A DNA stretch of 64,000 nt from positions 45,948 through 109,947 of the forward strand of contig CAVTZS010000009.1 of the NCBI GenBank assembly GCA_963739295.1, read 5' to 3'. The translations under genes were made by a program, and so were the position numbers. Positions 17,054 through 37,025 of this stretch are shown here, piece by piece. Below the pieces are notes generated by a model. The model was not told where the DNA came from. It saw only the letters and a list, made by a program, of their open reading frames with translations, and did not search any database. How positions within the stretch are numbered: the stretch's first letter is position 1; the number at the start of each line of letters is the position of its first letter. This DNA is from an uncultured delta proteobacterium (lineage in GTDB: Bacteria > Desulfobacterota > Desulfobaccia > Desulfobaccales > 0-14-0-80-60-11).

Positions 17054-18664
17054 TCAACCTCTGGCGCTGGAGGGGGCCTGCCGGCGCTGTTCCTTGATCA
17101 TCCGGTCCAGGCCGAACTGTTTGACCCGGTAACCTATTTGCCTCAGGGTCAGGCCCAGTTCCATGGCGGCCTGGGACTGAATCCAGCGGTTGCGCTCCAG
17201 GGCGGCCAAGATCTCCCGTTTTTCCATCTTTTTTAAGCGGGACAGAAACGGATGGTCCTCCATTGCCACCTTTTGGCTGGCAGGAAGAAGATACGGCGGC
17301 AGGTCCGGGAGATCGATTTCCGAGCCTTCCACCACGATACCCAGGCGCTCCACCAGATTCTCCAGTTCTCGTACATTCCCGGGCCAGTCATATTCCCGCA
17401 AGACCTCTAAAGCCTTTTGGTTGACATAAAACCTGCGTCCGTATTCCTTGGAAACCTTATCCAGGAAATGATTGAGGAGCGCCGGCAGGTCTTCCGGGCG
17501 TTCCCTGAGGGGTGGCAAATTTATGGGCAAGACATTAAGCCGGTAGTAGAGATCGCCCCTGAACCGGCCTTCATTTACCGCCTCAGTGAGGTCTTTGCTG
17601 GCTGCCGCGAAGACGCGGACCTCAACCTTCCTGGTCTTGCGGCTACCCAGGCGCTCAAATTCCCGTTCCTGCAAAAATCTCAGGAGCTTGGCCTGGCAGG
17701 TGAGGGAAAGTTCCCCGACTTCCTCCAGGAAAACGCTGCCCCCATCCGCTTCTTCCAGCCGCCCGGGCTTGGCTTTGGTGGCTCCGGTAAAAGCGTCTTT
17801 CTCATACCCGAAAAGTTCTGTTTCCAGCAAGTCATCAGGCCTGGAGGCGCAATTTATTTTCACCAAAGGATATTTGGCCCTGGGGCTTAACTCGTGGATG
17901 ATCCGGGCCACCAGGGTCTTGCCGGTGCCGGATTCACCGGTTAGCAAGACGGGAGCTCTGCTTATGACACCTTTTTTAATCAACTGTTGGACTTCTATGA
18001 GGGCCGGACCTTTGCCGACGATAACCAGATTCTGAGATCTCTCCGAGAGTTCAGTCCGGAGAAAGAGATTCTCCCGCCGCAAATTTTCTTCTCGGGCGAG
18101 CACCTGTAGGTTGAGACTGACAAATTGGGCAATGAGCAGAGCCACTATGCTAAGGAACCTGACATCTTCTGCTAAAGAGATATCTTCGCCCCCAAGGCGA
18201 TCTACACTTAAAACTCCTATGGCCGTGCCCTGAAGGACGATGGGAACCCCGATAAAAGAAATCCGTCCTCTCTCCAGCCGGCGTGATTCGGTCTTATAGC
18301 GAAACAAAGGTTCTTTGCTGATGTCAGAAACTACCAGAGGCTGGGTGGTGTGAAAAATCAGGCTGGTAACCCTTTCATCCAGGAGATAGACCCCCCCAGT
18401 TTTTTCTTGCGGGGTGAGCCCGGAAGAGGCACTGAGGAGCAGGTGGCCGGTTTCGGCATCCTTGAGGGCAATAGTGGCCCGCTTCATGGACAGGGAATCG
18501 GAAAGAATCTCCAGGACCTTCTCCAGGGTCTGCTCCAGGTTAAGGGCCTGGCTAATGATCTGGCTGATCTCGTGCAGGACTTTTAATTCGAGCTCAGTGA
18601 TACCGGCGTCCATACCCTTATTGGGGAGCAAGAAATATGCCTGCTTTTCAGACAAACGGGGCAT
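17054..18664 (-). CDS. sigma54-dependent transcriptional activator with N-terminal GAF domain (NifA-like architecture)
   Basis: 536 aa. GAF-like N-terminus; AAA+ core with GESGTGKTLVARIIHELS, the GAFTGA-type loop (KDAFTGA) and ELFGYEK; C-terminal Fis-type HTH (AAMELGLTLRQIGYRVKQFGL). Confidence 0.9.
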   Translation of the reverse strand: MPRLSEKQAYFLLPNKGMDAGITELELKVLHEISQIISQALNLEQTLEKVLEILSDSLSMKRATIALKDAETGHLLLSASSGLTPQEKTGGVYLLDERVTSLIFHTTQPLVVSDISKEPLFRYKTESRRLERGRISFIGVPIVLQGTAIGVLSVDRLGGEDISLAEDVRFLSIVALLIAQFVSLNLQVLAREENLRRENLFLRTELSERSQNLVIVGKGPALIEVQQLIKKGVISRAPVLLTGESGTGKTLVARIIHELSPRAKYPLVKINCASRPDDLLETELFGYEKDAFTGATKAKPGRLEEADGGSVFLEEVGELSLTCQAKLLRFLQEREFERLGSRKTRKVEVRVFAAASKDLTEAVNEGRFRGDLYYRLNVLPINLPPLRERPEDLPALLNHFLDKVSKEYGRRFYVNQKALEVLREYDWPGNVRELENLVERLGIVVEGSEIDLPDLPPYLLPASQKVAMEDHPFLSRLKKMEKREILAALERNRWIQSQAAMELGLTLRQIGYRVKQFGLDRMIKEQRRQAPSSARG

Positions 18665-18987: not shown

Positions 18988-19626
18988 TCAAGACTCCGGC
19001 ATCAGGAGTCTGACGATGGCCAGGACATGCCGCCAAATGAGCCGCATGCGGTCGAGCATGGCCAGAAAGATCGGCGAGGCCTGGGGCATGCAGAGCCCTT
19101 CGATCATCCGGGTCTCATGTTCAGTGGCCACATCGAGGCATAACTGGATCAGGACCCGCCCTTCCTCCAATACATATTTCTTCAGGAAATCGTTGTCGGT
19201 TTTAATAATATCCAGAAGGGACCGCAGCATCCCCGTCTGATGATTAAAGAGATAATTGGTCTGAGAAAAAGCCTTATCAGTGAACAGCACCCCGTCCTGG
19301 ATTTTTTTCCGAATAGGTTCGGCCAGACCCGCGATATTTTCGCTCATGATCTCCAAATGGCTGAGGATACTGTGGAGCCGGAGAAGCGCAGTCTTTTCGG
19401 TTTCGGACTTGCCAGGTATAGCGGCCTCCATCTGGCTGGTGGCCTCTTTGATATCTCTATCCACTGCTTCCTTGATTTTCTTGAGTTCCTCCAGGTCAGT
19501 ACGGCTATTGCGGTTAAAGGCATTCCGGGCGGCCCCCACCATGATCCTCAACTCATCGACAATAGGGCCTAAGATTTCCTGGTGCTTTTTGACAATCTCT
19601 TCCACGGGGAGCCTCCTTTGTCTCAT
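18988..19626 (-). CDS. hypothetical helical protein (possibly PhoU-like)
   Basis: 212-aa ORF with coding-like composition and its own terminator. The heptad-rich helical sequence is faintly reminiscent of PhoU-domain proteins. No firm motif. Confidence 0.55.
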   Translation of the reverse strand: MRQRRLPVEEIVKKHQEILGPIVDELRIMVGAARNAFNRNSRTDLEELKKIKEAVDRDIKEATSQMEAAIPGKSETEKTALLRLHSILSHLEIMSENIAGLAEPIRKKIQDGVLFTDKAFSQTNYLFNHQTGMLRSLLDIIKTDNDFLKKYVLEEGRVLIQLCLDVATEHETRMIEGLCMPQASPIFLAMLDRMRLIWRHVLAIVRLLMPES

Positions 19627-20145
19627 GGTCTGGTTTGATTCCTCTTAAGCCTGCTTCTTGGGGGTTGGGGTCAGGGTGCGCTTAGCTCTAACTCCCGCGC
19701 CCTCCTCTTGAAGGGTTGAAATGGTGAAGGGATCAAGGTTTCTTCCCGCTTGACCTCCTCACCCTCTCTGCTAAAAGCCTACTCCAGTTTTTCCACTTTC
19801 AGCAACGGTAATATTTAGCATCTACTTATAATATAGTCATTCAAAAAACAAAAAAAACTAGGTTTTGCAACTAGTAAATGCAGAACGCGGCCCCGCCGGA
19901 TTTAACTTCAGAGGAACAAGTAGGACGGGCTTCCCCGGGCTAAACTCGGGAGAGTGAAAGATGATTTGGGGGATTGGCTGGCCCCTGACGGCTGAAGGAA
20001 AAGGAGGGAGCAAGCTCCCCCCAGACCTGGGTAATAAGCCGGATAATTGCGGTCTTTGACTCCCGGCTTTACCTGTCGAGAATTAAAGGGATAGAGGCAA
20101 GGGGCAGATGCGGTACCCCCTGCCCCCCTCAACCTGGCATCCTCC

Positions 20146-21003
20146 TTAAATTTTCTGGCTCTGGAAACGTTTGGTGCGAGCCGCTTCCTCCTTTGGAGGC
20201 GGAGCCTCACCCACCACGGCCTTCACCTTGGTCAGACGGTCGCCGGTGGGAGGATGGGTCTTGAAGATCCCTCCCGAGGTGCCTTTCTCTTTGGCGAGCA
20301 TCTTGGAAAGCAGCGCGGCCATGGCCCCCGGATCATATCCGGCATTCCTCAGGGTTTGCAGGGCGTCCCGGTCTGCGGCCTCCTCGGCGGTGCGGCTGTA
20401 ACCGTTGACCACGATGGTCTTGAAGACATCGTCGATGGAGCCTTCAAAGAGAGTGACCAGGTTTCCCGCCACCCCGCCGTATTGTTTGGCCGCCTTGGTT
20501 CCCATGGCGGTCACCACCTCGGTCCAGCGGGCCTTGCTGATGGAGTTGATGCCATCCTTGTTGCCCACGTGGGCCACTTCGTGGGCCAGCACGGCGGCCA
20601 GCTCATCTTCGTTGTCGCAGGTCTGGACCAAGGCCCGGGTGACAAAGATGATTCCCCCAGGGCAGGCGAAGGCGTTAATTTCGGTGGTATCCAGCACGGC
20701 AAAGTGGTAGCCCCGGAAGGTTTGGGGACGGGAAGACTTCCGGGCCACGGTCTGGCCCACCTGGTTCACGTACTGGGTGAGCCGGGCGTCCTGGTAGAGG
20801 GGATAAGTGGCGAGAAGGCGGGCCGCCACCGCCCGCCCCACGTAATATTCCTCGGTATCGGTGATGGGCCGGGACGCGTCCACCGCCTTGGAAACCCCTT
20901 TGGCGGCAATGGCCGCCACCGGGAGCACTTCCAGGCCGGTGCAACCCCCAACCCCGGTGAGGACCACAGCCAGCAAGACCAACCCTAGGTTTTGCCGCCT
21001 CAT
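20146..21003 (-). CDS. M48-family zinc metallopeptidase, lipoprotein
   Basis: 285 aa. Lipobox LTGVGGC. HEXXH in LAAVLAHEVAHV, with a downstream E in EEAADRDA and a THPPTGDR tail typical of M48/BepA-like peptidases. Confidence 0.85.
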   Translation of the reverse strand: MRRQNLGLVLLAVVLTGVGGCTGLEVLPVAAIAAKGVSKAVDASRPITDTEEYYVGRAVAARLLATYPLYQDARLTQYVNQVGQTVARKSSRPQTFRGYHFAVLDTTEINAFACPGGIIFVTRALVQTCDNEDELAAVLAHEVAHVGNKDGINSISKARWTEVVTAMGTKAAKQYGGVAGNLVTLFEGSIDDVFKTIVVNGYSRTAEEAADRDALQTLRNAGYDPGAMAALLSKMLAKEKGTSGGIFKTHPPTGDRLTKVKAVVGEAPPPKEEAARTKRFQSQKI

Positions 21004-21506
21004 GGCTTCAGCCCTCCTTCCTTGATGAAAGCTTGCAGCTTGGCGTCATCCACCCTGAGGGCCTCCACCTGGTCCACCTGGGCGAACTTCATTTCCGGGT
21101 GTTTCTGCCGGTAGGCCGACTCTACCTCGGGGGTGAAGCCCTTGCCTGCCAGGGCCACTTCGTCGCTTTTGGTTTCCTTCACCGGGGAGCCGAACAGGAG
21201 CCCCGGCAGGCTGAATTTTGCCGGGGCCTGGGCCTGGGGGAAGGCCTGGCGGTGCAGCCACCCGGATTTGTCCTGGTATTCCACCTTATACCAATCTCCC
21301 GCCTGCCTAAGGACGTTCACCTCGGCTCCCACCGGCACCGGGCTGATGGGGGTGCTGGCGAAATCCGGATCCGGGTATAGCTGCTGATCGGGCTGGGAAA
21401 CCTTCAGGGTCTCCGCCCCAACGGGCGCGGGTCCCAGGAGCAGCGCCAGCAGCCCCAGGGCTACCAGCCATATGGCAGGCCTTTTGAGTAAAACTGGCCG
21501 TCTCAC
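21000..21506 (-). CDS. secreted SH3-domain protein
   Basis: 168 aa. Signal peptide, then a bacterial SH3-like segment (VNVLRQAGDWYKVEYQDKSGWLHRQAF). Its stop overlaps the M48 start (ATGA), so the two form an operon. Confidence 0.65.
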   Translation of the reverse strand: MRRPVLLKRPAIWLVALGLLALLLGPAPVGAETLKVSQPDQQLYPDPDFASTPISPVPVGAEVNVLRQAGDWYKVEYQDKSGWLHRQAFPQAQAPAKFSLPGLLFGSPVKETKSDEVALAGKGFTPEVESAYRQKHPEMKFAQVDQVEALRVDDAKLQAFIKEGGLKP

Positions 21507-30790: not shown

Positions 30791-31237
30791 TTAAGGTTCT
30801 GGGGGTGGTTCCCCGTGACCTGGCGTCTTCGGGGGGCTCAGCAGTTGGCAGAGCTCCCCGGTGATCAGCCGCTTTAGGTCTTCCCTGGTCTGCCGGTACA
30901 ACTCCAGGCTGCCGCCGTAGGGGTCCAGCACGGGCCGGTGGATTAACACCCCTTTGAAGGCAGGGGGCAGAAAGGGTTCCAAGCGGCGATCCGCCAGGTT
31001 GACAATTACCTGGCATTCTTCTAGATTTATCTCTGCCAGCCCTTTGGAGTAAAGCCCTTCCGTGGCCAGGCCTATCTCCGCCAATACCTGCAAGGTTTCC
31101 CGGGTTACCCAGCCCAGTGGGTTAGTGCCGCCCGAGGCCACCCCCCAAGTATCCCCGAGAAAGTGCCGGGCCAGGGCTTCGGCCATGATACTGCGGCAGG
31201 AATTCCCCAGGCAGATGAAAACCACCCTCTTTTTCAC
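30791..31237 (-). CDS. low-molecular-weight phosphatase family protein (LMW-PTP / ArsC-type)
   Basis: P-loop VVFICLGNSCRSIMAEA (CX5R-S). Start set at the GTG giving MKKRVVFICLGN. The longer ORF to 31687 would overlap the upstream ADH gene. Confidence 0.75.
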   Translation of the reverse strand: MKKRVVFICLGNSCRSIMAEALARHFLGDTWGVASGGTNPLGWVTRETLQVLAEIGLATEGLYSKGLAEINLEECQVIVNLADRRLEPFLPPAFKGVLIHRPVLDPYGGSLELYRQTREDLKRLITGELCQLLSPPKTPGHGEPPPEP

Positions 31238-31311
31238 TTTTTGCCTGTCATCGTCTTGGGGGTCGTGACCCAGCCTAGTACCCCCCCCAACGTGACAAAT
31301 TTCCCAGAGAA

Positions 31312-32334
31312 TCAAGGAAGATCCGGGGTAGCCACGGCCAGCACCGCGGCGCCCTGGAGTTGGCCGCGGCGCAACCTCTCCAGGGCCTCGTTTGCCTGCC
31401 CCAGGGGAAAGACCTGCACCTCGGTTTTCACCGGCACTTGGGGCGCGATCTGGAGAAATTCTTCGCCGTCCTGCCGGGTCAGGTTGGCCACCGAGCGAAT
31501 CACCCGCTCTCCCCAGAGAATGTGGTAGGGGAAGGAGGGAATATCGCTCATATGAATGCCGCCGCAGACCACGGTGCCGCCTTTGGCGGTGGCCTTGAGC
31601 GCCGCTGGCACCAGGGCACCCAACGGGGCAAAGATGATGGCCGCGTCCAGTTCTTCGGGAGGCGCTTGGGTGGAATCCCCCGCCCAAGAGGCCCCCAGCC
31701 GGCGGGCAAAGGCCTGGGCCTCAATATCTCCGGGTTTGGTGAAGGCATAAATCCGCTTACCCTGGTACACCGCAATCTGGGCGGCAATGTGAGCCGCCGC
31801 GCCAAATCCGTAAATCCCCAGCCGTTCCACCCCTTCCCCCGCCAGACGGTAGGAGCGGTAGCCGATCAACCCGGCGCATAATAGGGGAGCGGCTTCCGTG
31901 TCCTGGTACGCCGGGGGCAGATGGAAAATGTAGCGCTGATCCGCCACCGTGTATTCGCTGTAGCCGCCGTCCCGAGTATAACCGGTGAAAAGCGGGTGGT
32001 CGCAAAGATTCTCCTGGCCCTTACGGCAGTAACGGCACTGGCCGCAGGTATAGCCCAGCCACGGCACGCCAACGCGGTCGCCCACGCTGAATTTCTCCAC
32101 TTGCGCCCCGGTCTTAATGATCGTGCCCACTATTTCATGTCCCAGAATCAGGGGCAGTTTGGGATCCGGAAGCTCACCGTCGACAATGTGTAAATCCGTG
32201 CGGCATACCCCGCAGGCCTGAACCCGGATCAGAACCTCCCCCGGGTCTGGTTGCGGCACCGGGACCTCCATGGCTTTAAGCGGGCTTTTCGGTGCGGTAA
32301 ACACCATGGCCCGCATCTCTTCCGGCATTACCAT
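31312..32334 (-). CDS. zinc-dependent alcohol dehydrogenase
   Basis: 340 aa. GVCRTDLH, GHEIVGTIIKTG, structural-zinc CGQCRYCRKGQENLC, and the Rossmann motif GIYGFGAAAH. Confidence 0.88.
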   Translation of the reverse strand: MVMPEEMRAMVFTAPKSPLKAMEVPVPQPDPGEVLIRVQACGVCRTDLHIVDGELPDPKLPLILGHEIVGTIIKTGAQVEKFSVGDRVGVPWLGYTCGQCRYCRKGQENLCDHPLFTGYTRDGGYSEYTVADQRYIFHLPPAYQDTEAAPLLCAGLIGYRSYRLAGEGVERLGIYGFGAAAHIAAQIAVYQGKRIYAFTKPGDIEAQAFARRLGASWAGDSTQAPPEELDAAIIFAPLGALVPAALKATAKGGTVVCGGIHMSDIPSFPYHILWGERVIRSVANLTRQDGEEFLQIAPQVPVKTEVQVFPLGQANEALERLRRGQLQGAAVLAVATPDLP

Positions 32335-32681: not shown

Positions 32682-34004
32682 TTGAAGATGGGGACCTTTC
32701 AGATGTACCGCCAGGAATACGAGAGAAAGCTGACCGCTCCGGAAAAGGCCGTGGCCTGCATCCAAGACTCCGACACCATCGTCCATGGTATGGCCGCGGG
32801 TGAGCCCCCGGCCTTGCTGGGCGCGATCGCTAACCGGGTGAGAGCGGGCCTTCTTACCGATATCAAGGTCTTTTCGCTTCTGCCCATGGAGCACGCGGCC
32901 CAAACCATCCTAGCTCTTGACCTCAGCGACCGCATTCATCCTTATTGCTGGTTCTTAAGCAGTGCCGACCGAGACTTGGTCAAGGGTGGGAAAAATTATT
33001 TCGTGCCCAATGAATTCCACCAGATTCCCAGGTTATGCCGGGATTTCATGAAGATCGACGTCGTGGTCACCACGGTGTCGCCCATGGACCGAGCCGGCTT
33101 TTTCACCTTTGGGGTCGTCAATGATTACATCTCCACGGCGGCCCGGCACTGCAAAAGGCTCCTGGTAGAAGTCAATTCCCACATGCCCCGGGTTTTCGGG
33201 GACTCCCTGTTGCACGTCTCCGAGGTGGACGCCGTCGTGGAACATGAAGCGCCCCTTCTGGAAATCGTCCCAGCGCCACCCAGGCCCGAAGCCGAGACCA
33301 TCGGCCGCCAGATCGCGGCGCTGGTCCCTGACGAGGCCACCCTCCAGCTGGGTATCGGAGCCATACCCAACGCGGTGTGCCGGTATCTGGAAGGCCATCA
33401 GGATTTAGGCATACACACCGAACTCCTGTGTCCCGGCATGGTCCACCTGATCAAAGAGGGGGTGATCACGGGACGTAAGAAGAACCTGCATGCCCGGAAA
33501 CACGTTTTTACCAATGCCATGGGAGACCGGGAGATGTATGAATTCCTGAACGATAACCCCAGCATGGAAAGCTACCCGGTTAGCTATACCAACCTACCCC
33601 AGGTCATCGCCCAAAACGATAAGATGATCTCCATTAACTCCACCCTGGAAGTGGATCTCCTGGGGCAATGTAACTCCGAGTATCTGGGAGGCTTTGAATT
33701 TAGCGGTACCGGCGGCCAGCTGGACTATGTGCGGGGCGCCTTTAATTCCAAAGGGGGCAAGTCCATCATTGCTTTTTACTCTACGGCGCACCATGGCGAG
33801 GTGTCCCGGGTAGTGCCGCGCTTTACCCCCGGCACCGTGGTCACCACGCCCCGGATGGACACCCATTATCTGGCCACCGAGTACGGGGTGGTGAACTTGA
33901 TGGGAAAATCCACCCGGGAAAGAGCCCTGGACATTATCAGCCTGGCCCATCCCCAATTCCGGGAGGATTTGCTGCAAGAGGCCCAGAAAATGCACCTGCT
34001 CTAA
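32682..34004 (+). CDS. acetyl-CoA hydrolase/transferase family protein (4-hydroxybutyrate / butyryl-CoA:acetate CoA-transferase-like)
   Basis: 440 aa. Family blocks ...ATLQLGIGAIPNAV..., HTELL, INSTLEVDLLGQCNSE, GTGGQLDYVRGA. TTG at 32682; ATG alternatives at 32688 and 32703. Confidence 0.85.
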   Translation: MKMGTFQMYRQEYERKLTAPEKAVACIQDSDTIVHGMAAGEPPALLGAIANRVRAGLLTDIKVFSLLPMEHAAQTILALDLSDRIHPYCWFLSSADRDLVKGGKNYFVPNEFHQIPRLCRDFMKIDVVVTTVSPMDRAGFFTFGVVNDYISTAARHCKRLLVEVNSHMPRVFGDSLLHVSEVDAVVEHEAPLLEIVPAPPRPEAETIGRQIAALVPDEATLQLGIGAIPNAVCRYLEGHQDLGIHTELLCPGMVHLIKEGVITGRKKNLHARKHVFTNAMGDREMYEFLNDNPSMESYPVSYTNLPQVIAQNDKMISINSTLEVDLLGQCNSEYLGGFEFSGTGGQLDYVRGAFNSKGGKSIIAFYSTAHHGEVSRVVPRFTPGTVVTTPRMDTHYLATEYGVVNLMGKSTRERALDIISLAHPQFREDLLQEAQKMHLL

Positions 34005-34198
34005 GGCCCGCGGCTGGTGAAGTTTATCGGTTGCCCTGGAGAAATGGCAACTTTCTGATTCCCAGTCCCCACCCCATCCATGGCGGTGGCTATTTTCAGC
34101 CCAACAGTCTCCTTTTCTTTAAGCCGCGGCTGGGGAATCTTTAACGGTAAGAGGTTAGCGGCTGGCCCTAAAAGGATGTTACCCGGATAAAGGCCGAT

Positions 34199-34235
34199 GA
34201 GGGGCGAGCGGTCGGGTCGCCCCTCCATCTTTTTC
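34199..34235 (+). terminator. hairpin terminator between convergent genes
   Basis: GAGGGGCGA-(9 nt)-TCGCCCCTC, a 9-bp perfect stem, then CATCTTTTT. Lies between the CoA-transferase (+) and the low-complexity lipoprotein (-). Confidence 0.5.
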
Positions 34236-34383
34236 AGCCCGGGAAAAAGCATTGCCCCCAAATTTCGGCCTATTCCCCAGCTAACACCGAGGTGAAGGCT
34301 TTGCCACCTGGGTCAAGCTGCGAGGAATCGAATTCTTACCTCTATTTTACCGGGGTCGCCATTATCCCAAAGAAAGCTTGCAC

Positions 34384-35490
34384 CTAAGGTCCCATCACCC
34401 CAGGGCCGGGTCGAGCCTGAGCCCCAGGGCCGGGTCGAGCCTGACCTCCTTGAGCAGGTCCAGGTCGGGCCTGCATCCCCGGACCAGGTCCAGCTCGACC
34501 TTGCATCATTGGCCCAGCTCCAGGTCGAGTCTGCATCCCTGGACCAGGTCCAGGGCGGCCGCCTTGCATCGCCATACCCCCAGGTCGGGCCTGCATCCCC
34601 GGACCAAAGCCAGGCTGGCCCATTCCAGCGCCAGGGCCTTGCCGGGGGCCAGCCATGGGAGACCGGGAGGCATTCCCGGGAGAGCCAGACATCATCGATT
34701 GACCTTGCACGGATGAGCGCTGCGACTGCCCCCCACGTTGCTGACCGAATTGCTGGTCGGTCCCCCCACGCTGTTGGCCGAATTGCTGATTAGCCCCCCC
34801 ACGTTGCTGGCCGAATTGCTGATTAGGTCCGCCGTTTTGTTGGCTGAATGACTTATTAGGTCCGCCGTTTTGCTGGTTGAAGGGCCCGTTTTGTTGATTA
34901 GGTCCACCGTTTTGTTGCCCGAATTGCTGATTGGAGCCGTTTTGTTGATTAGGCCCACCGTTTTGTTGGCTGAATGACTTATTAGGTCCGCCGTTTTGCT
35001 GGTTGAAGGGCCCGTTTTGTTGATTAGGTCCACCGTTTTGTTGCCCGAATTGCTGATTGGAGCCACTTTGCTGATTAGGCCCACCATTTTGTTGACTGAA
35101 CTGCTGGTTGGTCGAAAGTGGGTTGTTAGTTAGCTGGCCCGATTGCTGATTTAATTGCTCCGTCGCAACTGGCAATTGGCTTGCCTGCTCACCAGGTGGG
35201 GGTGGTGGAGGGGGGGTAACCAGAACCACCCCTCCAGAGTTATTTGAGGAGTACCCCCCACCGTACGACGTCTCATAGCCGTAAGGCAGGAAAAAAGGAA
35301 AAGACCCGGAAGACCCGGAAGACCCGGAAGACCCGTTATACCCATAAGATCCGCCGTATCCCGAGCCGTACATGCCACCGTAGCCGCCACCGTTGCCGCC
35401 ACCGTAGCCGGAATACCCGGGATATCCCCCGCATCCTCCCAGGGTCAGAACGACCAGAAGCAGGGGCACCGCCCCACGCATGATAGCCAT
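34384..35490 (-). CDS. secreted low-complexity lipoprotein (G/S/Y-rich, poly-Pro, Q/N-rich repeats, then G/P/M/Q/R-rich tail)
   Basis: 368 aa. Signal peptide with lipobox (LTLGGC). The rest has almost no ordinary sequence: GGYGGMYGSGYGGSYGYNGSSGSSGSSGS..., PPPPPPP, repeated QQNGGPNQQ units, then GPGMQARPG-type repeats. The frame stays open through all DNA repeats. Confidence 0.75.
   Translation of the reverse strand: MAIMRGAVPLLLVVLTLGGCGGYPGYSGYGGGNGGGYGGMYGSGYGGSYGYNGSSGSSGSSGSFPFFLPYGYETSYGGGYSSNNSGGVVLVTPPPPPPPGEQASQLPVATEQLNQQSGQLTNNPLSTNQQFSQQNGGPNQQSGSNQQFGQQNGGPNQQNGPFNQQNGGPNKSFSQQNGGPNQQNGSNQQFGQQNGGPNQQNGPFNQQNGGPNKSFSQQNGGPNQQFGQQRGGANQQFGQQRGGTDQQFGQQRGGQSQRSSVQGQSMMSGSPGNASRSPMAGPRQGPGAGMGQPGFGPGMQARPGGMAMQGGRPGPGPGMQTRPGAGPMMQGRAGPGPGMQARPGPAQGGQARPGPGAQARPGPGVMGP
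34826..35077 (-). repeat. 2 x 126-nt near-identical tandem duplication inside the lipoprotein gene
   Basis: Units 34826-34951 and 34952-35077 differ at only a few positions near their ends. Each encodes a 42-aa unit (FSQQNGGPNQQNGSNQQFGQQNGGPNQQNGPFNQQNGGPNKS). Shorter degenerate repeats flank them. Confidence 0.85.
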
Positions 35491-35960
35491 GATACCTCCC
35501 TTCTCAGGTTAGCCACTCTACAAACTCAGGGCTTAAGTACGCATCCCCCACTAAAGCAAATTAATAATTCCGGATTGGCTGCTGAAGCTTAAATCCCACG
35601 GTGCTTTCCTGTATTTCCCGACCAACCCTGATCACCCCCGGCTTGCGCCTCGGATTGACCTTTCGCCCCCTGGCCAGGCTTCTTAAGCCTTCCGGTTCAA
35701 GAACTATGACTCAAAGGTTTGTTACCCCTCAGTAGATTAGATAAATCCCCAGGGCAAAAGTTAGCCGGCTTCCTTGCCTGGCTAAAAATTTTTAGCGCCA
35801 GTTTTTGTGGGTGAATCGGGGAGGAATTCCTCTTTATTCCTCCTGGCCGTCCCTAGATATTGGCTGGAAGAAGGAAAGAGGGCGCCGTAGCCTGGGGGGG
35901 TCAATACTCCAAGGTGCCACTGCTAGAGGCGACAGGCAGGGAGGGGTTTCTGAGTTTCGA

Positions 35961-37025
35961 TTACTGCCATCTGCCGGGCAAGGGGGTGGCACAGGCCGGG
36001 CAACAACCCCCTTTAAGCTTCATGGCAGTGATGCTGAAGATCTGGCGGGTAATTACCTCCCGGCCACATCCGGGGCAGAAGGTATTTTCTCCAGGATGGC
36101 CCGGCACATTGCCCAGGTAAGGGAAGGGCAGCCCTGCCTCCTGGGCCTTTTTTCTGGCCGCCTCCAGAGTTTTAAGGGGCGTGGCCGGGATCTGATGCCA
36201 TTGGCAGGCGGGATGAAAGCGGGTCAAGTGCCAGGGAGTGTGTGGGCCCAAATCCGTCCCTAGCCAGGAGGCGATCCCCTCCAGGGTGGCGAGATCATCA
36301 TTGAGCCCGGGGATGATATTGGTGACCACCTCCACCCATATCCCCCAACGGCGCCGGGCCCGCACCGCCGCGGCCCGGATGGCCTCGGGCTCAGGCAGAT
36401 GCGCCAGGGCCTCATAGGTCTGAGGGGCATAGCCCTTGATATCCACCCGATAGACATCCAAATGGGGCCCCAAGGCGTCCACCGCATCTAAGGTCAGGGC
36501 CCCATTGGTGACGATATTGGTATATAACCCGGCCTGCCGGGCCAGGGGCGCGGTATCCAGGATGTATTCCAGCCACAGGGCCGGCTCATTGAAGGTCCAG
36601 GAAAGGCCCGCGGCGTGGTGGCGCACCGCCAGGGCCACCAGCTCCTGAGGGCTGACGTACCGGGTGCCGGGCAATTCCTGGTCAATATTAGCATGGGCCA
36701 GTTCCCAGTTTTGACACCCCGGACAGCGAAAATTACAGCCCAAGCTTCCCAAAGAAAGCCAGGTGCTACCCGGAAGGAAATGAAATACCGGCTTTTTCTC
36801 GATGGGATTAAGGGAAATAGAGGCCACCTGGCCGTAAATCAGGCTGACCAGGGTGCCGTCCCGATTTTCCCGGGTATGGCACCACCCCCGGCCCCCGGGC
36901 AGGATGACGCACCGCCGGAGGCAGGTGAGGCAGCGCACCCTACCTTCCGAAAGCCCTTCAACCAGAAGGGCTGGATATCCGCGCGCAGGTCTGGAGGGAT
37001 TGGCGACCATGGCTAGATCTTTCAA
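35961..37025 (-). CDS. radical SAM enzyme, AmmeMemoRadiSam-type / PFL-activase-like
   Basis: 354 aa. N-terminal Cys cluster (CLTCLRRC...C), IEKKPVFHF, radical SAM CX3CX2C in GCNFRCPGCQNWE, and a C-terminal CPGC...CCPAC zinc-ribbon-like end. Confidence 0.75.
   Translation of the reverse strand: MKDLAMVANPSRPARGYPALLVEGLSEGRVRCLTCLRRCVILPGGRGWCHTRENRDGTLVSLIYGQVASISLNPIEKKPVFHFLPGSTWLSLGSLGCNFRCPGCQNWELAHANIDQELPGTRYVSPQELVALAVRHHAAGLSWTFNEPALWLEYILDTAPLARQAGLYTNIVTNGALTLDAVDALGPHLDVYRVDIKGYAPQTYEALAHLPEPEAIRAAAVRARRRWGIWVEVVTNIIPGLNDDLATLEGIASWLGTDLGPHTPWHLTRFHPACQWHQIPATPLKTLEAARKKAQEAGLPFPYLGNVPGHPGENTFCPGCGREVITRQIFSITAMKLKGGCCPACATPLPGRWQ

What the first reader, a model, noticed from the sequence alone, without database searches (positions are those of the whole stretch)
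34384..35490. Lipoprotein made almost entirely of four different low-complexity zones, including prion-like Q/N repeats and a FUS-like G/S/Y region
After a lipobox signal peptide (Cys20), the protein has four successive zones:
- GGYPGYSGYGGGNGGGYGGMYGSGYGGSYGYNGSSGSSGSSGS, with the (SSG)n stretch encoded by 9-nt DNA repeats at about 35297-35330.
- A PPPPPPP hinge.
- About 150 residues of QQ(N/F)GG(P)NQQ repeats, including two near-identical 126-nt units.
- About 110 residues of GPGMQARPG-type Gly/Pro/Met/Arg/Gln repeats.

No globular domain is visible. Such composition is typical of phase-separating, amyloid-prone or hydrogel-forming eukaryotic proteins and is unusual for a bacterial outer-leaflet lipoprotein. 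The perfect tandem DNA repeats also make the gene length-variable by slippage or recombination. Possible roles are a matrix or periplasmic gel component, a spacer, or a metal-binding (Met-rich) tail.
Basis: partly seen in the sequence, partly recalled or inferred. Interest (0 to 1): 0.65.

Follow-up and report, generated by a model that had tools for sequence, protein, structure and literature searches.

The report
Fully disordered repeat lipoprotein, transcribed in wetlands
This is a real, transcribed gene of an uncultured wetland anaerobe that encodes a lipid-anchored envelope protein with no folded domain, built from four kinds of low-complexity repeats whose copy number differs between strains; its function is unknown.

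Summary
ORF 34384-35490 (minus strand, 368 aa) has a strong ribosome-binding site and a signal peptide with a lipobox (Cys20). Four low-complexity zones follow: Gly/Ser/Tyr, Pro7, an 11-residue Gln/Asn/Gly/Pro repeat, and an Arg/Gly/Pro/Met/Gln tail.

It is a gene, not a chance frame:
- It is the only open frame of six.
- A syntenic orthologue (94% identical) differs only by in-frame indels, with dN/dS about 0.34.
- At least two more lineages keep the frame, the lipobox or both.
- Repeat units differ far more at synonymous than at non-synonymous sites.
- Two soil metatranscriptomes give their longest and deepest contigs of about 60 kb of the window on this gene.

AlphaFold finds no fold. No family, PDB or real homologue match exists, but the protein collections omit even its known orthologues, so that absence is weak evidence.

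Best reading: an outer-membrane-tethered, intrinsically disordered polymer with an aromatic proximal part and a cationic Arg-rich distal tail, forming a length-tunable brush or gel at the envelope. "Prion-like" holds by composition only; Gly or Pro occurs at least every 12 residues. Unlike other disordered lipoproteins noted in this scan, it has no partner barrel gene.

The parts
34384..35490 (-). Complete ORF, 368 codons plus TAG stop; product P0001.
   Evidence: It is the only open frame of six. dN/dS against orthologue L001:3604-4698 is 0.34 in this frame.
35495..35500 (-). Shine-Dalgarno GGGAGG, 4 nt before the ATG at 35490.
   Evidence: GAAGGGAGGTA(T/C)CATG is conserved in the diverged lineage L005/L006, where the rest of the upstream region is only about 70% identical.
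35434..35490 (-). Signal peptide, residues 1-19 (MAIMRGAVPLLLVVLTLGG).
   Evidence: It is the only helix in the AlphaFold model. It is conserved in L001, L003, L004, L005 and L006.
35431..35433 (-). Cys20 codon, the predicted lipidation site of lipobox L-G-G-C. It is the only Cys in the protein.
   Evidence: PS51257 rule met. Invariant in all orthologue fragments.
35302..35433 (-). Zone 1, residues 20-63: Gly/Ser/Tyr low complexity with [G/S]Y[G/S] motifs. Contains the 12-nt and 9-nt DNA arrays.
   Evidence: Other populations lack 9 nt at 35301 and 12 nt at 35383.
35215..35301 (-). Residues 64-92: short aromatic/hydrophobic patch FPFFLPYGYETSYGGGYSSNNSGGVVLVT.
   Evidence: pLDDT below 50 for residues 21-88.
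35194..35214 (-). Pro7 hinge, residues 93-99.
   Evidence: One codon shorter in L001 and in run X3. The 10-residue block 91-100 containing it has the highest confidence in the model (mean pLDDT 72).
35113..35193 (-). Residues 100-126: Gln/Leu/Ser/Asn-rich non-repetitive linker.
34702..35112 (-). Zone 3, residues 127-263: Gln/Asn/Gly/Pro 11-mer repeats with one Phe per unit. It ends in three QQRGG units. Includes the 126-nt x 2.3 array (34816-35100) and 33-nt units (34729-34826).
   Evidence: Unit gains and losses between lineages: +102/-108 nt; net -60 and -93 nt; net +36 nt.
34387..34701 (-). Zone 4, residues 264-368: cationic Gly/Pro/Met/Gln/Arg tail with GPGMQARPG-type 9-10-mers. Arg recurs every 10 residues (302-352) and the zone holds 12 of the 13 mature Met.
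   Evidence: +33 nt, -6 nt and -3 nt variants occur in other lineages.
35491..35960 (-). 470-bp upstream intergenic region, presumed to hold the gene's own promoter and leader.
   Evidence: Blocks are conserved between diverged lineages. No Rfam family matches here. The fold is no more stable than shuffles, z = 0.16. No promoter was identified with confidence.

Best explanation
This is a real, lineage-restricted, well-transcribed gene. It encodes a lipoprotein whose whole mature chain (349 aa, about 35 kDa, pI about 10) is intrinsically disordered.

Inferred pathway:
1. Sec export.
2. Lipidation and cleavage at Cys20.
3. Lol-type transfer to the outer membrane of a diderm, LPS-bearing bacterium. 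This follows from Gly at +2/+3 and a disordered N-terminal stretch, as in E. coli outer-membrane lipoproteins.

Inferred action: the lipid holds one end of a flexible polymer about 126 nm in contour length (random-coil Rg about 6 nm).
- The membrane-proximal part carries Tyr/Phe 'stickers' in Gly/Ser.
- The middle is a neutral, hydrated Gln/Asn/Gly/Pro spacer with one Phe per 11 residues.
- The distal third is a Lys-poor, Arg-rich polycation.

Through many weak contacts it forms a tethered brush or gel at the envelope. These contacts would be Arg with aromatic residues, and Arg with anionic envelope polymers such as LPS, peptidoglycan or exopolysaccharide. Gain and loss of repeat units sets its length.

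Which face of the outer membrane it occupies is unresolved.

Shown: gene reality, purifying selection, transcription, lipobox, lack of a detectable fold, and repeat-number variation. Inferred: localisation and the brush/gel role.
For: Gene reality:
- It is the only open frame of six, in both the window and the orthologue.
- SD plus ATG are conserved across lineages.
- A syntenic orthologue lies between the same radical-SAM and acetyl-CoA hydrolase genes.
- All indels are multiples of 3: 3, 102, 108, 3.
- Substitutions: 18 synonymous and 19 non-synonymous, dN/dS 0.34. The only other frame with a low ratio is the wobble-sharing antisense frame, which has 21-24 stops.
- In metagenome contigs, indels inside the ORF (3, 3, 9, 12, 6, +33 nt) and the net changes at rearranged repeat joints (-60, -93, +36, -27 nt) are multiples of 3. 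Indels just outside the ORF are 5 and 1 nt.
- Units encoding the same peptide motif differ at 50-64% of synonymous sites but only 15% of non-synonymous sites.

Expression:
- Study P15 holds a relative about 92% identical across the locus in DNA (depth 5-9).
- The two RNA runs of that study give 547- and 496-nt contigs at depth 6.7 and 19.2 on this gene, carrying the same variants as the DNA.
- No other organism-specific RNA contig over about 60 kb of the window exceeds 252 nt or depth 4.7.
- Codon choice differs from 32 other window genes in the direction typical of highly expressed genes: TTC 0.79 vs 0.38, TAC 0.58 vs 0.37, AAC 0.55 vs 0.36, GCT 0.59 vs 0.17, CGT+CGA 0.72 vs 0.17.

Lipoprotein:
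- PS51257 rule met. The lipobox and Cys are invariant in five fragments, including a lineage 74% identical at the N-terminus.
- Diderm host: MlaC, a lipid A acyltransferase and a heptosyltransferase are in the window.
- About half of E. coli outer-membrane lipoproteins have a disordered N-terminal linker that Lol needs for optimal sorting (bioRxiv 10.1101/2021.01.05.425367).

Disorder:
- Mean pLDDT 43, pTM 0.12, and no secondary structure beyond the signal helix.
- 74% disorder-promoting residues. Mean hydropathy 0.37 is below the Uversky boundary of 0.425.
- No Pfam, NCBIfam or PDB match.

Grammar:
- 7 [GS]Y[GS], 3 RGG and 6 RPG motifs.
- Phe every 11-17 residues and Arg every 10-11 residues.
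- Net charge +11, all of it in the last 146 residues.
Against: - No experiment or proteome shows the protein, its lipidation or its location.
- RNA evidence comes from assembler contigs without strand information. Residual DNA cannot be excluded, although DNA would cover all genes evenly.
- The RNA belongs to a relative about 92% identical, not to the window's own strain.
- AlphaFold was run with only four sequences, so low confidence is weak evidence for disorder.
- The unit-level pN/pS is biased downward, because units were picked by their peptide motif.
- Codon counts are inflated by repeated units.
- The +2 sorting rule is taken from E. coli and is not validated for this lineage.
- No neighbouring gene hints at a partner or a pathway.
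- The brush/gel role rests on composition alone.
Confidence: 0.55

Rival explanations
1. It is a surface-exposed, size-variable shield or adhesin. The lipoprotein would be flipped to the cell surface. Its repeat-number changes would alter how far the coat extends, modulating attachment, aggregation with partner cells, or access of phages and predators. The models are the Mycoplasma Vsa/Vlp lipoproteins and the Neisseria H.8 (Lip) repeat lipoprotein.
For: - Repeat number differs among every lineage sampled.
- Between the window and L001, the gene and its intergenic flanks are 3-4 times more diverged than the flanking genes: 96.3% identity against 99.0-99.4%, and dS 0.076 against 0.019-0.023. 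Contact-exposed genes often show this pattern.
- Vsa length set by tandem repeats controls shielding and adherence (PMC6080569).
- Disordered N-terminal linkers have been proposed as devices to reach the surface.
Against: - dN/dS is 0.34, not above 1.
- There is no sign of a multigene family, silent cassettes or phase-variation tracts at the locus.
- No surface-lipoprotein exporter or barrel gene lies nearby.
- Against the P15 lineage the gene is no more diverged in substitutions than its flanks.
Confidence: 0.2
2. It is a functional amyloid or prion-like matrix protein. The Q/N repeats would stack into cross-beta fibres outside the cell, as curli does, to build a biofilm matrix.
For: - 44 Q/N in the best 80-residue window. 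As I recall, the classic Q/N-rich criterion is 30 per 80.
- The repeat is regular with a conserved aromatic residue.
- The organism lives in sediments and peat, where aggregates are common.
Against: - Gly-Gly-Pro interrupts every unit. The longest stretch free of Gly or Pro is 11 residues.
- No match to Curlin or any amyloid family.
- No curli-like secretion or nucleator genes lie nearby.
- A lipid anchor is not a feature of known secreted amyloid subunits (general knowledge).
Confidence: 0.07
3. It is a Met-rich redox or metal buffer. The tail, with 12 Met in 105 residues, would scavenge oxidants or bind Cu(I)/Ag(I) in the periplasm of an anaerobe exposed to oxygen pulses.
For: Met makes up about 11% of residues 264-368, including MAM and MM pairs. 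Wetland redox conditions fluctuate (general knowledge).
Against: - There is no His or Cys, no MxxM or MxM arrays of the kind seen in known Cu-binding Met motifs, and no nearby copper or Msr genes.
- This explains only one of the four zones.
Confidence: 0.05
4. It is a young orphan ORF with little or no specific function, or a repeat-rich RNA whose open frame is incidental.
For: - No homologue outside a narrow lineage.
- It is absent from the syntenic position in the six closest species-level genomes.
- Its composition could arise by repeat expansion.
Against: - The frame, SD, signal peptide and lipobox are kept in at least three lineages.
- Purifying selection acts between orthologues and between units.
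- It is the best-represented gene of the window in two metatranscriptomes.
Confidence: 0.08

Closest known systems
Neisseria H.8 antigen (Lip), an outer-membrane lipoprotein carrying AAEAP pentapeptide repeats
   Same: Both are Gram-negative lipoproteins carrying a simple peptide repeat (PMC3916388). That Lip consists essentially only of the repeat, with no globular domain, is from my memory.
   Different: Lip is small and has one Ala/Glu/Pro repeat type. This protein is 349 aa and has four chemically distinct zones: aromatic/Gly, Pro7, Gln/Asn/Gly/Pro, and cationic Arg/Gly/Pro/Met. There is no sequence relationship.
Mycoplasma Vsa/Vlp variable surface lipoproteins
   Same: Both are lipid-anchored proteins dominated by tandem repeats. 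In Vsa the copy number changes and sets the length of a surface shield (PMC6080569). In-frame copy-number differences are seen here too.
   Different: Vsa has a conserved 242-aa N-terminal part, belongs to a multigene family with site-specific recombination, and occurs in wall-less bacteria. Here there is a single stand-alone gene in a diderm, with no cassette system visible.
Disordered N-terminal linkers of E. coli outer-membrane lipoproteins (RcsF, NlpD, Pal, LpoB)
   Same: Both have a flexible, sequence-tolerant stretch directly after the lipidated Cys. In E. coli this stretch supports Lol sorting and spans periplasmic distance (bioRxiv 10.1101/2021.01.05.425367).
   Different: In those proteins the linker (over 22 residues, tens at most) ends in a globular domain that does the work. 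Here the 'linker' is the whole protein.
Disordered Tyr/Gly-plus-Arg lipoproteins encoded beside FadL-type barrels
   Same: Both have a lipobox, no fold, an aromatic/Gly block followed by an Arg-rich, Lys-poor cationic tail, and conserved composition rather than conserved sequence (unchecked AI notes).
   Different: Those proteins always sit next to a FadL-type outer-membrane barrel and occur in Bacteroidota or soil lineages. This gene stands alone between cytoplasmic enzyme genes, has a long Gln/Asn/Gly/Pro middle zone, and comes from a Syntrophobacterales-like anaerobe.
Eukaryotic low-complexity and elastomeric proteins: FUS-family LC plus RGG regions, spider dragline/flagelliform silk GPGXX modules, wheat HMW glutenin repeats, resilin (from memory)
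   Same: Shared features are [G/S]Y[G/S] motifs, RGG motifs, evenly spaced aromatic and Arg residues, and Gly/Pro/Gln-rich turn-forming repeats.
   Different: There is no homology. The protein is extracytoplasmic and lipid-anchored, has no RNA-binding or terminal domains, and its phase behaviour or elasticity is untested.

Membership tests
Bacterial lipoprotein (PROSITE PS51257 / lipobox) | K/R in the first 7 residues; an uncharged hydrophobic stretch; [LIVMFWSTAG](2)-[LIVMFYSTAGCQ]-[AGS]-C with the Cys at position 15-35. | tested here: met
   Match LLLVVLTLGGC, Cys20, Arg5. The rule was written from memory of the PROSITE pattern. The Cys and lipobox are invariant in orthologues.
Bacterial lipoprotein (PROSITE PS51257 / lipobox) | The host encodes Lgt, LspA and Lnt, plus Lol for outer-membrane delivery. 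| not testable with these tools
Only indirect support exists: diderm/LPS genes in the window.
Bacterial lipoprotein (PROSITE PS51257 / lipobox) | Actual acylation and signal peptidase II cleavage. | not testable with these tools
   Needs globomycin or lipid-labelling experiments.
Q/N-rich prion-like domain | At least 30 Gln+Asn in an 80-residue window (criterion recalled from memory). | tested here: met
   44 per 80 residues starting at residue 129.
Q/N-rich prion-like domain | Ability to form self-propagating amyloid; long stretches free of beta-breakers. | tested here: inconclusive
   The longest stretch without Gly or Pro is 11 residues, and 9 within the Q/N zone. This argues against long cross-beta cores but does not exclude short zippers. 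No experiment is available.
FUS-family low-complexity / RGG proteins | Sequence homology or shared domain architecture (LC + RGG + RRM + zinc finger). | tested here: not met
   No Pfam or PDB match. The 5 weak hits among 1.84 billion representatives are unrelated repeat proteins; the four sequences inspected are clearly so. Only the motif grammar is shared: 7 [GS]Y[GS] and 3 RGG.
Curli / functional amyloid subunits | Curlin repeat (Pfam) and neighbouring secretion or nucleator genes. | tested here: not met
   No family hit even at E <= 10. The neighbours are radical SAM, acetyl-CoA hydrolase and dehydrogenase genes.
Bacterial collagen-like proteins | A long uninterrupted (Gly-X-Y)n run. | tested here: not met
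   The longest run is 5 triplets, in the GSS repeat.
Disordered aromatic/Arg lipoprotein + FadL-type barrel module (earlier scan notes) | An adjacent, co-oriented FadL-fold outer-membrane barrel gene. | tested here: not met
   The flanking genes are a radical SAM enzyme (upstream, same strand, 470 bp away) and an acetyl-CoA hydrolase/transferase (convergent). No barrel family was found among the 13 neighbouring proteins scanned. The rest of the genome could not be searched.
Braun's lipoprotein (Lpp)-type OM-peptidoglycan tether | Helical coiled coil and a C-terminal Lys for covalent attachment. | tested here: not met
   No helix beyond the signal peptide. The C-terminus is ...GVMGP or ...GAMGL, with no conserved Lys.

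The most novel reading that the evidence does not exclude
The protein would form a condensate or hydrogel outside the cytoplasm, tethered to the outer membrane. It has the same two-part grammar as eukaryotic FUS-type proteins: Tyr/Phe stickers in Gly/Ser/Gln/Asn spacers, plus an Arg-rich Gly tail. It is strongly expressed in situ. Together with the barrel-associated Tyr/Gly + Arg lipoproteins that this scan keeps finding in Bacteroidota, it would belong to a widespread, unrecognised class of disordered 'sticker-spacer' lipoproteins that organise the material state of the bacterial envelope.
Probability: 0.15. Interest if true: 0.8.

Novelty: new variant of a known kind. Interest (0 to 1): 0.45.

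Why it matters
Lipoproteins are usually viewed as a lipid anchor, a flexible tether and a folded working domain. Here the tether is the whole protein, yet it is under purifying selection and is among the best-transcribed genes of its neighbourhood in natural samples. So the disordered chain itself must do something. If that is to form a brush or gel at the outer membrane, it would extend low-complexity 'material' proteins, known mostly from eukaryotic cells and extracellular matrices, to the envelope of an environmental anaerobe.

There is also a practical point. The protein and its orthologues are absent from the large protein collections searched here, and composition-corrected searches return nothing. 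Proteins of this type are therefore systematically under-counted.

Tried and rejected
Searches that found nothing useful:
- Pfam and NCBIfam gave no family.
- Two word-indexed homology searches, one full-length and one on residues 1-110, gave nothing.
- An exhaustive phmmer against 1.84 billion representatives gave 5 weak hits (best E = 4e-9). The four hit sequences inspected are unrelated repeat proteins matched by composition.
- PDB phmmer gave nothing.
- Exact look-ups showed that neither this protein nor its orthologue fragments are in the protein collection. These negatives therefore say little.

Limits on distribution:
Paralogues, Lol/Lgt genes and distribution in relatives could not be checked.
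- The metagenome pattern scan found only the already known L005 contig.
- The six closest species-level genomes, labelled Syntrophobacterales or Deltaproteobacteria MAGs (neighbouring radical SAM 68-76% identical), have no such gene next to their radical SAM orthologue.

Regulatory elements:
- No sigma-54 promoter: no TGG-N8-TTGC match upstream of the gene, and window-wide matches are at chance level.
- Sigma-70 and terminator scans were at background.
- No Rfam family in 33900-36100, and the leader is not unusually stable.

Readings rejected:
- Collagen-like.
- Curli-like.
- Antisense gene.
- A partner FadL-type barrel.

Literature searches found no described protein of this build.
Full report
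**What is there.** The minus strand of 34384-35490 carries a 368-codon ORF. GGGAGG lies 4 nt before the ATG. The product begins MAIMRGAVPLLLVVLTLGG-C. This meets the PROSITE PS51257 lipoprotein rule as I coded it: Arg5, an uncharged hydrophobic core, L-G-G-C, Cys20.

The mature 349 residues are 26% Gly, 17% Gln, 12% Pro, 9.5% Ser and 9% Asn, with no His, Ile or Trp. They fall into these zones:
- Residues 20-63: Gly/Ser/Tyr.
- Residues 64-92: a short aromatic/hydrophobic patch.
- Residues 93-99: Pro7.
- Residues 100-126: a non-repetitive Gln/Leu/Ser linker.
- Residues 127-263: 11-residue NQQFGQQNGGP-type repeats, ending in three QQRGG units.
- Residues 264-368: GPGMQARPG-type repeats.

Tandem Repeats Finder confirms the 9-nt (35301-35335, 100% matches), 12-nt, 33-nt, 126-nt (34816-35100, 94%) and 24/30/60-nt arrays.

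**Is it a gene?** Yes.
- The sense frame has only its terminal stop. The other five frames carry 6-21 stops, and the same holds in the orthologue.
- Shuffles of the surrounding 2 kb never reach 300 open codons.
- A JGI wetland contig (L001) has the same gene between the same neighbours, a radical SAM enzyme and an acetyl-CoA hydrolase/transferase. Its product is 94% identical.
- The two genes differ by 37 substitutions, 18 synonymous and 19 non-synonymous. That gives dN/dS 0.34, similar to the neighbouring radical SAM gene (0.34).
- They also differ by four indels of 3, 102, 108 and 3 nt, all in frame.
- The only other frame with a low ratio is the antisense frame that shares wobble positions, and it is full of stops.
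- Fragments from four more contigs keep the start, signal peptide and Cys. These include a lineage only 74% identical over the first 56 residues, whose Gly/Tyr zone is similar in composition but not in sequence. SD and ATG are conserved there although the upstream region is about 70% identical.
- Metagenome contigs from wetland, peat and freshwater-sediment runs show further indels inside the ORF of 3, 3, 9, 12, 6 and +33 nt, and net changes at rearranged repeat joints of -60, -93, +36 and -27 nt. All are multiples of three. Indels just downstream of the stop are 5 and 1 nt.
- Within the gene, units encoding the same peptide motif differ at 64% (Q/N 11-mers) or 50% (tail 9-mers) of synonymous sites, but at 15% of non-synonymous sites. 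The peptide repeat is therefore old and maintained at the protein level, not a fresh DNA slippage product. One caveat applies: units were selected by motif, which lowers pN.

**Expression.** One study (coded P15) has DNA runs holding a relative about 92% identical across the whole 20 kb examined, at depth 5-9. Its two metatranscriptomic runs give 547- and 496-nt contigs on this gene at depth 6.7 and 19.2. These carry exactly the variants seen in that study's DNA.

Over about 60 kb of the window, other organism-specific RNA contigs exist. They are at most 252 nt long and depth 4.7 or less, for example at 17192-17432 and 19426-21218. This gene is therefore the best-represented one of the window in both runs.

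Codon choice also departs from 32 other window genes towards TTC, TAC, AAC, GCT and CGT/CGA. In many bacteria this pattern marks highly expressed genes. Repeats inflate these counts. Contigs carry no strand information and residual DNA cannot be strictly excluded.

**Structure.** AlphaFold2 on the four-sequence alignment gives mean pLDDT 43 and pTM 0.12, with no secondary structure except the signal-peptide helix. The alignment is shallow, so this is weak evidence. It agrees with the composition: 74% disorder-promoting residues, GRAVY -1.17, and a position on the unfolded side of the charge-hydropathy boundary.

**Relatives.**
- No Pfam, NCBIfam or PDB match.
- Homology searches returned nothing credible.
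- The exact sequences of this protein and of its demonstrable orthologues are not in the protein collection at all. 'No homologue' therefore largely reflects a blind spot.
- The neighbouring radical SAM gene finds its closest species-level relatives (68-76% identical) in MAGs labelled Syntrophobacterales or Deltaproteobacteria. None of the six has this gene at the syntenic site.
- The gene is thus confined, as far as can be seen, to a narrow wetland, peat and sediment lineage.

**Host and neighbourhood.** The window encodes MlaC, a lipid A acyltransferase and a heptosyltransferase, so the host is a diderm with LPS. The gene stands alone. It lies 470 bp downstream of the co-oriented radical SAM gene and is convergent with the acetyl-CoA hydrolase gene. 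No transporter, barrel or envelope gene is adjacent. No promoter, riboswitch or structured leader could be assigned, although several upstream blocks are conserved between lineages.

**How it most likely works.**

Shown:
- A selected, transcribed gene.
- A lipoprotein signal.
- No detectable fold.
- Variable repeat number.

Inferred:
- Export and lipidation at Cys20.
- With Gly at +2/+3 and a disordered stretch after the Cys, transfer to the outer membrane, as for E. coli lipoproteins whose disordered linkers aid Lol sorting.

The mature chain would then be a tethered polymer about 126 nm in contour length with Rg about 6 nm. Its chemistry is graded:
- Near the membrane: 7 [GS]Y[GS] motifs and an aromatic patch.
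- In the middle: a rigid Pro7, then a neutral hydrated Gln/Asn/Gly/Pro spacer with one Phe every 11-17 residues.
- At the far end: a polycation with all 13 Arg (three RGG, six RPG, spacing 10-11), only 2 Lys in the whole protein, and net charge +11.

This is the sticker-and-spacer arrangement known from phase-separating eukaryotic proteins. It also resembles Gly/Pro/Gln-rich elastomeric repeats (from memory). My best reading, at 0.55, is an envelope brush or gel held together by many weak contacts: Arg with aromatic residues, and Arg with anionic polymers. Repeat gain and loss would tune its length. The face of the membrane is unresolved.

**Rivals.**
- A surface-exposed, size-variable shield or adhesin like Mycoplasma Vsa or Neisseria Lip (0.2). 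Supporting points are the copy-number variation and the 3-4-fold higher divergence of the gene and its intergenic flanks between the window and L001. Against it are dN/dS below 1 and the absence of a cassette system.
- A curli-like amyloid (0.07). Gly or Pro occurring at least every 12 residues argues against it.
- A Met-rich redox or metal buffer (0.05).
- An orphan ORF of no specific function (0.08). Conservation and expression argue against it.

**Comparison and novelty.** Repeat-only lipoproteins and disordered lipoprotein tethers are known. A 35-kDa, four-zone, FUS-like or elastomer-like lipoprotein with no folded domain is not described in the literature I could search.

Earlier notes of this scan describe compositionally similar Tyr/Gly + Arg disordered lipoproteins in Bacteroidota. 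Those are always paired with a FadL-type barrel, which is not the case here.

I class it as a new variant of a known kind. Interest is moderate: the biology is suggestive and testable, but the function is inferred from composition alone.

Noticed in passing
window 34005-35960 versus L001 3134-5071: Between the window and contig L001, the lipoprotein gene (96.3% identity) and both of its intergenic flanks (96.6% and 97.6%) are 3-4 times more diverged than the flanking genes (99.0% and 99.4%). dS is 0.076 against about 0.02. This could be a recombination tract from a more distant strain or a locally raised mutation rate. The numbers are small.
   Followed up: partly
window 35491-35960; L005 2494-3187; L006 1135-1828: The upstream intergenic region keeps several blocks between lineages that are otherwise about 70% identical: TCCGGAATTATT, GCCTGGCCA-GG-G-GAAAGGTCAA, CTAACTTTTGC and ATCTAAT. 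The L005/L006 lineage carries about 225 bp of extra sequence just after the radical SAM gene. These are candidate promoter or regulator sites. No known RNA family matches and there is no unusual fold.
   Followed up: partly
window 32682-34004 and 35961-37025: The mechanical ORF starts are probably too early. Gene calls on related contigs use ATG 32703 for the acetyl-CoA hydrolase/transferase (433 aa). Close relatives of the radical SAM enzyme are 349 aa rather than 354.
   Followed up: partly
window 30791-31687: This 298-aa ORF overlaps the alcohol dehydrogenase gene (31312-32334), and its LMW phosphotyrosine phosphatase domain covers only residues 155-275. The related contig L089 calls a 148-aa product. 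The long ORF is an over-extension.
   Followed up: no
window 17192-17432 and 19426-21218: The two metatranscriptomes also contain short, 93-97% identical contigs on the sigma-54 activator gene and on genes around 19.4-21.2 kb. The related organism is therefore transcriptionally active in those samples.
   Followed up: no
P0001, P0006-P0009 (protein look-ups): Neither this protein nor its called orthologues are present in the 15-billion-protein collection, although a gene call for one exists on a JGI contig. Low-complexity proteins of this type seem to be missing from, or invisible to, the standard homology resources.
   Followed up: partly
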